Shown: positions 33,909 through 34,172, counted from the stretch's first letter. The stretch: DNA of 64,000 nt from Escherichia coli (GCF_013122565.1 NZ_CP053258.1); one strand, 5' to 3'. Program-made: numbers and translations. The notes: generated by a model from the sequence alone, not told the origin.

Positions 33909-34172
33909 GTGCCGGATGCGATGCTGGCGCACCTTATCCGGCCTACGGGGTGCTCAACTTGTTGATGTTGTTGTGTTTTGTACCTGATGCCGGATGCGAT
34001 GCTGGCGCATCTTATCCGGCCTACGGGGTGTTTAATTTGTTGATGTTGTTGTGTTTTGTACCTGATGCCGGATGCGATGCTGGCGCATCTTATCCGGCCT
34101 ACGGGGTGTTTAATTTGTTGATGTTGTTGTGTTTTGTAGGCCGGATAAGGCGTTTACGCCGCATCCGGCACC
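33909..34172. repeat. BIME/REP array: three tandem 78-bp units plus a terminal inverted REP
   Basis: GCCGGATGCGATGCTGGCGCA.CTTATCCGGCCTACGGGGTG...TTGTTGATGTTGTTGTGTTTTGTACCTGAT starts at 33911, 33989 and 34067; ends with GGCCGGATAAGGCGTTTACGCCGCATCCGGC. Confidence 0.8.

What the first reader, a model, noticed from the sequence alone, without database searches (positions are those of the whole stretch)
33911..34172. Three near-perfect 78-bp tandem repeats containing REP units downstream of yhaM
An exact 78-bp periodicity (unit starts at 33911, 33989 and 34067), each unit carrying a REP palindrome plus a TTGTTGATGTTGTTGTGTTTTG spacer, then a terminal inverted REP. This is unusually regular for a BIME and lies between convergent yhaM and yhaL, so it may act as a terminator or transcript-stabilising array, or be copy-number variable.
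Basis: seen in the sequence. Interest (0 to 1): 0.3.

Follow-up and report, generated by a model that had tools for sequence, protein, structure and literature searches.

The report
Copy-variable REP array downstream of cyuA
The three-copy 78-bp repeat is real, but it is an ordinary E. coli REP/BIME element between two converging genes, and its strain-to-strain change in copy number (0 to 3 in E. coli, 5 in E. albertii) is known behaviour for this kind of element.

Summary
Window 33910-34138 holds 2.9 copies of a 78-bp unit; units 2 and 3 are identical. A REP in the opposite orientation caps the array at 34136-34170. The array lies between convergent cyuA (yhaM) and yhaL.

Each unit is a 37-nt Z2-like REP, a 36-nt G/T-rich linker found only at this locus, and a CCTGA joint. 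The cap is a Y-type REP. All unit REPs point the same way, so this is an atypical BIME, not a canonical BIME-2.

Copy number varies among 5,426 complete E. coli genomes:
- about 20% have no unit (a single hybrid REP)
- about 56% have one unit (K-12)
- 1,287-1,288 have two units
- five have three units, with different internal structures

The window's arrangement matches none of them. The E. albertii type strain has five units with the same joint, so the multi-unit array is ancestral. It contracts and occasionally re-expands by homology-driven slippage or unequal exchange.

Published K-12 data place an RNA 3' end 6 nt after the unit REP hairpin. They also place Rho-dependent termination regions just beyond the element on both strands. 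The likely role is 3'-end protection, with Rho terminating downstream. This is ordinary and of low novelty.

The parts
32579..33889 (+). cyuA (yhaM) coding sequence. Its TAA stop is at 33887-33889, 21 nt before the first REP stem.
   Evidence: ORF list; RefSeq annotation of homologous loci as cyuA, cysteine desulfidase; stop checked.
33910..33987 (+). Unit 1. It has a Z2-like REP at 33910-33946 (variant 'b', CACCTT, which leaves one stem mismatch), linker type 1 at 33947-33982 (GGGGTGCTCAAC...) and the CCTGA joint at 33983-33987.
   Evidence: REP typing.
33988..34065 (+). Unit 2. It has a Z2-like REP at 33988-34024 (variant 'c', CATCTT), linker type 2 at 34025-34060 (GGGGTGTTTAAT...) and the CCTGA joint at 34061-34065.
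34066..34138 (+). Unit 3. It is identical to unit 2 but lacks the CCTGA joint. REP at 34066-34102, linker at 34103-34138. Its last GTA overlaps the GTAG of the terminal REP.
34136..34170 (+). Terminal Y-type REP in the opposite orientation (GTAG at its 5' end on the + strand). It can pair with a unit REP to form a long REPIN-like hairpin. Its stem starts 9 nt beyond the yhaL stop on the - strand.
   Evidence: 34/35 identity to the Y consensus of Nunvar et al. Table 1; inverted repeats I1-I4; folds.
34178..34348 (-). yhaL ORF, convergent with cyuA. RefSeq annotates 165 nt in homologous loci; the mechanical ORF here is 56 aa, counted from an upstream ATG.
   Evidence: annotation.
33955..33966 (-). 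Match to the IHF core consensus ATCAANNNNTTR in linker 1. Equivalent matches lie at 34033-34044 and 34111-34122. Binding is untested.
   Evidence: 15 matches in the window against 6.4 expected, 3 of them in the array.
33905..33905 (-). Position equivalent to the K-12 Term-seq RNA 3' end (MG1655 3255325, + strand). It lies 6 nt past the last REP hairpin met by yhaL-sense transcripts. This is inferred by homology and was not measured in this strain.
   Evidence: Adams et al. 2021 supplementary file 1; mapped onto the sequence.

Best explanation
This is an atypical BIME (a cluster of REP elements) in the shared 3' region of the convergent cyuPA and yhaKL transcription units.

Structure, read on the + strand:
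- three head-to-tail 78-bp modules, each a 37-nt Z2-like REP hairpin in the CTAC-3' orientation, a 36-nt linker found only at this locus, and a CCTGA joint
- one Y-type REP in the opposite orientation that closes the array

History:
- The multi-unit array predates the split between E. coli and E. albertii.
- It loses or gains whole 78-bp units by replication slippage or unequal sister-chromatid exchange between units.
- It collapses to a single hybrid REP by deletion between the 7-nt GCCGGAT repeats.
- The window's third unit is a recent duplication of unit 2, with its crossover inside the 24-nt stretch shared by linkers 1 and 2.

Function (inferred):
- When transcribed from either side, the REPs fold into stable hairpins of about -21 kcal/mol.
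- These hairpins stop 3'-to-5' exonucleases and so set the steady-state 3' ends of both mRNAs.
- Transcription itself is ended by Rho a short distance beyond the element.
- On the yhaL-sense strand each hairpin is followed by an unstructured, C-rich, G-poor linker that could serve as a Rho loading site.
- Copy number is probably nearly neutral.

Shown here: the anatomy, REP typing, copy-number polymorphism, independent expansions and ancestral state.
Shown by others, in K-12 only: the RNA 3' end at the REP and Rho dependence nearby.
Inferred: slippage as the mechanism, the linker as a rut site, and neutrality.
For: Anatomy.

REP typing:
- The unit REP matches the Z2 consensus of Nunvar et al. 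at 33/37 positions. The four differences form two compensatory stem pairs.
- The terminal REP matches Y at 34/35.
- REP-like sequence is dispersed, with a median of 26 places per genome for the 901-nt query.
- The linker occurs only 1-4 times per genome, and the rows checked lie at this locus.

Polymorphism among 5,426 complete E. coli genomes:
- An evenly spaced sample shows locus spans of 672-673, 744-746 and 824 nt in 12, 33 and 14 of 59 rows.
- 1,293 genomes carry the inter-unit joint and six have two such places.
- Five records have a 902-nt single-piece match.

Independent expansions:
- The three-unit alleles are [b,1][c,1][c,K] in L001, [b,1][b,1][c,K] in L013 and L014, and [b,1*][b,1*][c,K'] in L015.
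- The window is [b,1][c,2][c,2], so the breakpoints fall in different intervals.
- O111:H8 strains differ, with 2 or 3 units.

Ancestry:
- E. albertii has 5 units with the same GTACCTGA joint, including before its first unit.
- Cryptic clades L008-L010 keep that joint before their single or degraded unit.

Other points:
- The single-REP allele reads exactly as a deletion between the two GCCGGAT copies. It occurs on two different flank and loop backgrounds, L004 and L005.
- REP hairpins fold at -21 to -22 kcal/mol. The - strand linker is A21 C13 G2 T5 with a predicted folding energy of 0.
- Whole-region folds have z-scores of -4.9 and -9.6.
- No intrinsic terminator lies in the array.

K-12 experiments from Adams et al. 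2021:
- A Term-seq 3' end at 3255325(+) lies 6 nt after the unit REP stem.
- Rho termination regions lie at 3255571(+), score 4.7, and 3255014(-), score 3.2.

General model: REP hairpins protect Rho-terminated transcripts, with rut sites just downstream (Dar and Sorek 2018). REP325 acts as both a stabiliser and a partly Rho-dependent attenuator, and REPs between convergent genes go with higher expression of both genes (Harris et al. 2026). Strain-to-strain variation in the number of tandem BIME copies is already documented (Ton-Hoang et al. 2012).
Against: - No RNA data exist for a 2- or 3-unit allele, or for the cyuA-sense strand. cyuA gave no sense 3' end in the conditions.
- The Rho scores use 800-nt windows, so they place termination only roughly.
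- Alleles with 0, 1 and 2 units are all common. That fits neutrality, but it also means no copy-number-dependent function has been demonstrated.
- The allelic REP variants show no compensatory double changes. About half of the stem substitutions keep pairing through G-U, which is what chance predicts. Selection on the hairpin at this locus is therefore not shown.
- I could not test whether the RAYT transposase contributes to unit gain or loss.
Confidence: 0.8

Rival explanations
1. Unit gain and loss is catalysed by the REP-associated tyrosine transposase (TnpA-REP/RAYT, yafM), which cuts and rejoins single-stranded BIME DNA at C|T sites. Under this view homology-driven slippage is not the cause.
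For: Ton-Hoang et al. 2012 showed in vitro cleavage at TGCC|TGAT (type I) and CC|TAC (type II) sites, and recombination that assembles multiple REPs. They proposed that this explains copy-number variation. Each unit here carries TACC|TGAT at the joint (7 of 8 positions of the type I consensus) and GGCC|TACG at the REP 3' end.
Against: - The crossover interval for the window's own extra unit is TTGTTGATGTTGTTGTGTTTTGTA. It has no CT dinucleotide on either strand, and C|T was reported as indispensable for cleavage.
- The independent three-unit alleles have breakpoints in different intervals, which is what homology-driven exchange predicts.
- Several outgroup units carry CTGC in place of CTAC, so they lack the GTAG needed for binding, yet the E. 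albertii array still has five units.
Confidence: 0.12
2. The array works mainly at the DNA level. It would be a phased set of protein-binding sites, with IHF bound in each linker as in BIME-1 (RIP/RIB) elements, or DNA gyrase bound as in BIME-2. Its effect would be on local supercoiling between convergent transcription units.
For: Every linker carries a perfect match to the IHF core ATCAANNNNTTR on the - strand. The core AAYTTGTTGATG is kept in E. albertii and in the B2 allele. BIME-1 linkers often hold an IHF site. Convergent transcription builds up positive supercoils, for which gyrase sites would be useful (established knowledge).
Against: - A core match is weak evidence: 15 occur in the window against 6.4 expected.
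- The common K-type linker of K-12 and O157 has TTAAT in place of TTGAT, which breaks the core.
- The linker is not the conserved L motif, because it is confined to this locus.
- The Y-S-Z2 alternation associated with gyrase binding at BIME-2 is absent from the internal units.
- About 20% of genomes lack the linker entirely.
- No ChIP data could be consulted.
Confidence: 0.08
3. The repeat encodes a repetitive small protein. The 84-aa GTG ORF at 33950-34204 runs through the array in frame, because 78 is divisible by 3.
For: An open frame exists. Its translation shows a 26-aa repeat.
Against: The frame consists only of REP and linker sequence and runs into the antisense of yhaL. It cannot exist in the 0-unit and 1-unit alleles that make up about three quarters of genomes. 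The units are typed as REPs.
Confidence: 0.01
4. The third unit is an assembly artefact in the source of the window, and the true allele has two units.
For: No complete E. coli genome has the [b,1][c,2][c,2] arrangement. The nearest allele, [b,1][c,2], has two units.
Against: Three-unit alleles exist in five finished genomes. A 234-bp array with distinguishable flanks lies within the reach of ordinary reads. E. albertii carries five units.
Confidence: 0.04

Closest known systems
Atypical BIME / BIME-2 of E. coli (classification of Gilson, Bachellier and Hofnung, as summarised by Ton-Hoang et al. 2012)
   Same: It is built from Y and Z2-class REPs and is extragenic. The copies are tandem and nearly identical within the locus. 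Their number differs among strains.
   Different: BIME-2 repeats a pair of REPs in alternating orientation (Y, short linker S, Z2, then s, l or r). A canonical example with a 100-bp period lies in the same window at 62648-62832. Here the repeated module holds one REP plus a 41-nt segment found only at this locus. All unit REPs point the same way, and Y occurs only once, at the end.
REP325 (the source of naRNA4) in the yjdM-yjdN operon
   Same: It is a multi-hairpin REP array in a 3' UTR. It has been shown to stabilise the upstream mRNA and to attenuate read-through in a partly Rho-dependent way that needs the full array.
   Different: REP325 has 12 hairpins in 6 Y/Z2 pairs between co-directional genes. 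The Rfam naRNA4 model matches here only below threshold, at 41.5 bits or less against a gathering score of 59.5. This array lies between convergent genes.
BIME-1 (RIP/RIB elements)
   Same: Both have a REP, a long linker with an IHF-like core, and an inverted REP. The K-12 one-unit allele has this outline.
   Different: BIME-1 uses Y and Z1 with a conserved, dispersed L linker and occurs as single copies. Here the REPs are Z2-like and Y, the linker is confined to this locus, and the module is tandemly repeated.
REPIN (a REP doublet mobilised by RAYT)
   Same: The last unit REP and the Y REP form an inverted doublet that is predicted to fold as one long hairpin. The singlet allele looks like a decayed doublet.
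   Different: There is no evidence of mobility, because the linker is not found at other loci. The internal units are direct repeats, not doublets.
Bacterial VNTR / minisatellite loci
   Same: Copy number varies among strains through gain and loss of whole units.
   Different: Mutability is low. 1,287-1,288 genomes keep two units and only five have three. The locus is not in a coding or promoter region, and no phase-variable phenotype is implied.

Membership tests
REP (palindromic unit) | An imperfect palindrome of 30-40 nt with a GTAG/CTAC tetranucleotide at its foot | tested here: met
   The unit REP is 37 nt and the terminal REP 35 nt. Both fold at -21 to -22 kcal/mol with internal mismatches. 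CTAC ends the unit REPs and GTAG starts the terminal REP.
REP (palindromic unit) | Extragenic and present in many copies in the genome | tested here: met
   The array lies between the cyuA and yhaL stop codons. The 901-nt query hits a median of 26 places per E. coli genome through its REP parts.
Y-type REP | Match to the Y consensus GTAGGCCGGATAAGGCGTTCACGCCGCATCCGGCA | tested here: met
   The terminal REP at 34136-34170 matches at 34 of 35 positions.
Z2-type REP | Match to the Z2 consensus GTAGGCCTGATAAGACGCGCCAGCGTCGCATCAGGCA (37 nt, GCGCCAGC centre) | tested here: inconclusive
   The match is 33 of 37, with the same length and centre. The four differences form two compensatory pairs, and they give the outer stem the CCGGAT of Y. 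'Z2-like variant' is the best description.
BIME (generic) | [quoted passage not shown] | tested here: met
   Unit 3's REP and the Y REP are inverted, with 33 nt between the arms (pair I3). The K-12 one-unit allele is exactly such a pair.
BIME-2 | Tandem copies in which Y and Z2 alternate in opposite orientation, with a short S linker | tested here: not met
   Three consecutive Z2-like REPs lie in the same orientation with no Y between them. The pair is separated by 36 nt, not a short linker.
BIME-1 (RIP/RIB) | Y plus Z1 with the conserved, dispersed L linker; single copy | tested here: not met
   There is no Z1-type REP. The linker occurs only at this locus, 1-4 places per genome. The module is tandemly repeated.
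Atypical BIME | Other combinations of REP types and linkers, in multiple copies, with linkers that vary in length and sequence | tested here: met
   Met by exclusion of BIME-1 and BIME-2 (for the definition). The consensus sequences of the S, s, l and r motifs were not available to compare.
naRNA4 (Rfam RF02564) | Score at or above the family gathering threshold of 59.5 bits | tested here: not met
   The best match is 41.5 bits at 34139-34183; the others are 36 bits or less.
Intrinsic (Rho-independent) terminator | A G+C-rich hairpin followed directly by a run of T | tested here: not met
   No terminator-like site lies within 33890-34177. The only hit in the region is inside yhaL at 34310-34329.
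Rho-dependent terminator / rut site | [quoted passage not shown] | tested here: inconclusive
   The composition fits on the - strand only: C 13 and G 2 of 41 nt, with a predicted folding energy of 0. K-12 has Rho termination regions within about 250 nt on both strands. Rho binding to the linker is untested.
RAYT (TnpA-REP) substrate | A REP with 5' GTAG and a stem mismatch, plus C|T cleavage sites in the partner iREP or linker | not testable with these tools
   The sequence features are present: GTAG, stem mismatches, TACC|TGAT and GGCC|TACG. Activity is biochemical. The window's own duplication interval lacks any CT.

The most novel reading that the evidence does not exclude
The 78-bp module would be a selected, dosage-tunable insulator between convergent operons. 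Each module combines a REP hairpin with a C-rich, G-poor linker that bears an IHF core. Each added module would increase 3'-end protection and Rho loading on yhaKL-sense RNA. That would lower antisense transcription into cyuPA, the genes for anaerobic cysteine breakdown and H2S production. Copy number would then be a heritable expression dial kept since before the split between E. coli and E. albertii, not neutral junk.
Probability: 0.08. Interest if true: 0.45.

Novelty: already known. Interest (0 to 1): 0.17.

Why it matters
It matters little for new biology. REP/BIME arrays, their within-locus regularity and their strain-to-strain copy-number variation have been described for decades.

The locus has modest practical value:
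- It offers a natural allelic series of 0, 1, 2 and 3 units in E. coli and 5 in E. albertii, at one convergent gene pair. With it one could test directly whether REP dosage changes 3'-end formation, Rho-dependent read-through and mRNA half-life. Recent work treats that question as open (Harris et al. 2026).
- It documents recurrent small expansions with mappable breakpoints.
- It shows how a REP singlet arises from a doublet by microhomology deletion.
- It is a cheap PCR-size marker that separates major E. coli lineages.

Tried and rejected
- Rfam scan: only sub-threshold naRNA4 hits, which reflect generic REP similarity.
- Terminator and promoter scan: nothing in the array.
- ORF through the array: rejected as coding.
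- MG1655 RefSeq table: it lists no repeat_region at the locus, so I could not cite the REP number of the K-12 copy.
- Single-REP (0-unit) allele count: a 59-nt query aimed at this allele was confounded. Multi-unit genomes align over 83% of the query, so only the spread sample, about 17-20%, is usable.
- Gene-name searches in supplements: the Harris et al. 2026 supplement gave only a differential-expression row for yhaL. No supplementary files are held for the Ton-Hoang, Dar and Sorek, or Prieto (IHF ChIP) papers. The IHF idea therefore stayed untested.
- Bachellier et al. 1997 (Genetics) is not held. The literature search for 'yhaL' was uninformative.
- Genome-contig scan with the degenerate cyuA 3' end: it found five Escherichia lineages, but not the window's source genome and not the GTDB representative of E. 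coli.
- Residual REP in the linker: alignment of the linker to Y and Z2 gave no similarity, with local scores of 4-5. The linker is not an obviously decayed REP.
- Allelic REP variants: no compensatory double substitutions.
- REP-mediated translational down-regulation of CyuA (Liang, Rudd and Deutscher 2015, recalled from memory): it needs a REP within about 15 nt of the stop codon. The first REP stem starts 21 nt after the cyuA stop, so this is unlikely for cyuA. The Y REP stem starts 9 nt after the yhaL stop, so it could apply to yhaL in every allele, whatever the unit number. This is untested.

Full report
OBSERVATION

- Tandem Repeats Finder reports 33910-34138 with period 78, 2.9 copies, 97% matches, no indels and score 430.
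- The repeat finder shows three copies spaced 78 and 78.
- Window 33959-34060 is identical base for base to 34037-34138. Unit 1 differs from unit 2 at five positions.
- Each unit carries a 37-nt palindrome, at 33910-33946, 33988-34024 and 34066-34102. A 36-nt G/T-rich linker follows, containing TTGTTGATGTTGTTGTGTTTTG. A CCTGA joint follows units 1 and 2.
- A 35-nt palindrome in the opposite orientation closes the array at 34136-34170.
- A REP-shaped pattern gave six matches in the 64-kb window, all in this array, against 0.15 expected.
- The flanks are the 3' ends of convergent cyuA (old name yhaM; stop at 33887-33889) and yhaL (stop at 34178-34180 on the - strand). The names come from RefSeq annotation of homologous E. 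coli loci.

WHAT THE PARTS ARE

I compared the palindromes with the E. coli REP consensus sequences printed in Table 1 of Nunvar et al. 2010, which that paper identifies as the Y and Z2 palindromic units.
- The terminal palindrome is a Y REP, matching at 34 of 35 positions.
- The unit palindrome is Z2-like, matching at 33 of 37. It has the same length and the same GCGCCAGC centre. Its four differences form two compensatory stem pairs.
- All four REPs fold at about -21 to -22 kcal/mol.
- REP-like sequence is dispersed, with a median of 26 places per genome for a 901-nt query.
- The linker is not dispersed. A 50-nt query dominated by the linker found only 1-4 places per genome, 5,010 places in 3,711 genomes, all chromosomal. 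Where I checked, they lay at this locus.
- The linker shows no residual similarity to a REP.

BIMEs are defined as REPs in alternating orientation. BIME-2 is a tandem series of Y/Z2 pairs with a short linker. A canonical example with a 100-bp period and two REPs per period lies in the same window at 62648-62832. The array studied here has one REP per 78-bp period, and all unit REPs point the same way. Only the last unit and the Y REP form a canonical inverted pair. It therefore fails the BIME-2 and BIME-1 definitions and falls into the catch-all class of atypical BIMEs.

VARIATION AMONG STRAINS

Among 5,426 complete E. coli genomes the locus comes in discrete sizes.
- In an evenly spaced sample of the ranking, 12 of 59 chromosomal rows span 672-673 nt, 33 span 744-746 nt and 14 span 824 nt. 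The window spans 901 nt.
- Fetched alleles show what these sizes are:
  - a single hybrid REP (for example 55989 and A10)
  - one unit plus Y (K-12, O157:H7 and LF82)
  - two units plus Y (F9792 and S40)
  - three units plus Y
- The inter-unit joint occurs in 1,293 genomes, with two places in six of them.
- Five records show a single-piece 902-nt match. I fetched and parsed four of them as three-unit alleles. The fifth, 96_1414P, is counted from its span alone.
- The sixth genome with two joints, S40, has only two units at this locus.

Rounded frequencies are about 20% with no unit, about 56% with one, 23.7% with two and 0.09% with three.

INDEPENDENT EXPANSIONS

In the notation below, b and c are the two REP variants. 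The linker variants are 1, 1*, 2, K and K'.
- The three-unit alleles are not one allele. They are [b,1][c,1][c,K] in O111:H8 7-16 37A, [b,1][b,1][c,K] in WS3294A and 96_1414B, and [b,1*][b,1*][c,K'] in OkiPb01713.
- The window is [b,1][c,2][c,2]. No complete genome has the window's arrangement.
- The window's nearest relative is the two-unit [b,1][c,2] allele of F9792 and the O169:H41 strains. Only eight records carry the type 2 linker.
- Other O111:H8 genomes have a single joint, meaning two units.
- The crossover intervals differ. One lies in the 5' 22 nt of the REP. One runs from the 3' part of the REP into the linker. For the window, it is the 24 nt shared by linkers 1 and 2.
- This pattern is what homology-driven slippage or unequal exchange predicts. 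It argues against a single site-specific event.
- The window's interval has no CT on either strand. Ton-Hoang et al. found the C|T dinucleotide indispensable for TnpA-REP cleavage. The RAYT rival is therefore unlikely for this particular duplication, although each unit does carry near-consensus cleavage motifs.

DIRECTION OF CHANGE

A degenerate pattern for the cyuA 3' end found five other Escherichia lineages.
- The E. albertii type strain has five 78-bp units plus the Y REP. GTACCTGA stands before every unit, including the first.
- Three cryptic-clade genomes keep GTACCTG before a single or partly deleted unit.
- In E. coli that joint survives only between units. The first unit abuts the flank without it.
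- So the multi-unit array is ancestral, and the one-unit K-12 allele is most simply a deletion by exchange between two unit REPs.
- The single-REP allele reads exactly as a deletion between the GCCGGAT at the start of the first unit REP and the GCCGGAT inside the Y REP. It lacks the canonical GTAG. It occurs on two different flank and loop backgrounds, so it probably arose more than once.

HOW IT LIKELY WORKS

There is no intrinsic terminator in the array. Only sub-threshold naRNA4 matches were found.

Published K-12 data bear directly on the one-unit allele.
- Adams et al. 2021 list a Term-seq 3' end at MG1655 3255325 on the yhaL-sense strand. I mapped it to 6 nt after the unit REP stem, which is equivalent to about 33905 on the window's - strand.
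- The same study lists bicyclomycin-sensitive Rho termination regions at 3255571(+), Rho score 4.7 and p = 2.5e-9. It lists another at 3255014(-), score 3.2 and p = 2.2e-5. These lie about 200-250 nt beyond the element in each direction.
- This matches the model of Dar and Sorek 2018. Rho terminates downstream, exonucleases trim back to a stable hairpin that lacks a U tract, and rut sites lie just after the hairpin.
- It also matches the dual role as stabiliser and attenuator shown for REP325, and the higher expression of convergent gene pairs that have a REP between them.
- On the yhaL-sense strand each REP hairpin is followed by a linker with 13 C and 2 G in 41 nt and no predicted structure. 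That is a plausible Rho loading site. On the cyuA-sense strand the linker is G/U-rich.

All of this is inference for the three-unit allele. No RNA data exist for it or for cyuA-sense transcripts.

RIVALS
- An IHF or gyrase role at the DNA level rests on a perfect IHF core in each linker. That core is common by chance. It is broken in the widespread K-type linker, and the whole linker is absent from a fifth of genomes.
- A coding reading of the in-frame 84-aa ORF is excluded by the allele series.
- An assembly artefact is unlikely, because three-unit alleles occur in finished genomes.

COMPARISON AND VERDICT
- Ton-Hoang et al. 2012 state that tandem BIME copies at one locus are well conserved and that their number varies among strains. 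Regularity and copy-number variation are thus known properties of the family.
- The head-to-tail module with a linker confined to this locus is an atypical architecture. It still lies within the recognised atypical BIME class.
- The finding is correct and its interpretation is essentially right, but it is ordinary. Novelty is 'already known' and interest is low.
- The most novel reading not excluded is that unit number acts as a selected expression dial for the convergent cyuPA and yhaKL pair. I give it about 8%.

Noticed in passing
window 19109-19389: There is a 113-bp tandem repeat here (2.5 copies, 94% matches). Each unit contains a terminator-like hairpin, AAAAACCCGCTTCGGCGGGTTTTT. The unit shares sequence with the rnpB 3' end printed in the supplement of Adams et al. 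2021. It is probably the known repeat downstream of rnpB.
   Followed up: partly
window 62648-62832: This is a canonical BIME with alternating orientation: two copies of a 100-bp period, each holding a Z2-like REP, a linker and a Y-like REP (GTAGGGCGGATAAGG...). I used it only as a contrast to the 78-bp array.
   Followed up: partly
window 36068-36109: Compared with E. coli 2016C-3878, the window has about 40 nt where that genome has 653 nt, including the DUF805 gene in the yhaI position between yhaJ and yhaH. That gene is therefore missing here.
   Followed up: partly
whole window (tested on 29900-38100 and 33300-34800): The source is E. coli-like, but it is only about 97-99% identical to the best of 5,426 complete E. 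coli genomes. It was also not among the GTDB species representatives matched by the cyuA pattern. The source lineage was not identified.
   Followed up: partly
L007 (E. albertii NBRC 107761), between the cyuA stop and yhaL: The five-unit array shows a higher-order two-unit pattern. Units 1 and 3 share GCGGTGC and GATGCTG, and units 2 and 4 share GTTTCGTA. This suggests a 156-bp duplication. Several units have CTGC in place of CTAC.
   Followed up: no
NZ_CP010235.1 (E. coli S40) and one unidentified genome: S40 has two inter-unit joint matches but only two units at this locus, so a second copy lies elsewhere. One genome has four linker matches. A segmental duplication of the locus would explain both, but I did not check.
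   Followed up: no
homologues of window 29900-38100 in NZ_CM168009.1 (PEC403) and NZ_AP017620.1 (MRY15-131): These strains carry an IS621-family (IS110-like) element and an ISApl1 element, respectively, within this 8-kb neighbourhood. IS621 is known to target REPs. In PEC403 the 901-nt array locus spans only 746 nt, so IS621 lies outside it. Neither insertion point was mapped.
   Followed up: no
window 34140-34180, - strand: The Y REP stem begins 9 nt after the yhaL stop codon. From memory (Liang, Rudd and Deutscher 2015), REPs within about 15 nt of a stop codon can stall terminating ribosomes and lower protein output. If so, this would apply to YhaL in all alleles.
   Followed up: no
window 33630-33671: There is a short 21-nt repeat (2 copies, 80% matches) inside the cyuA coding sequence. 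It is probably trivial.
   Followed up: no
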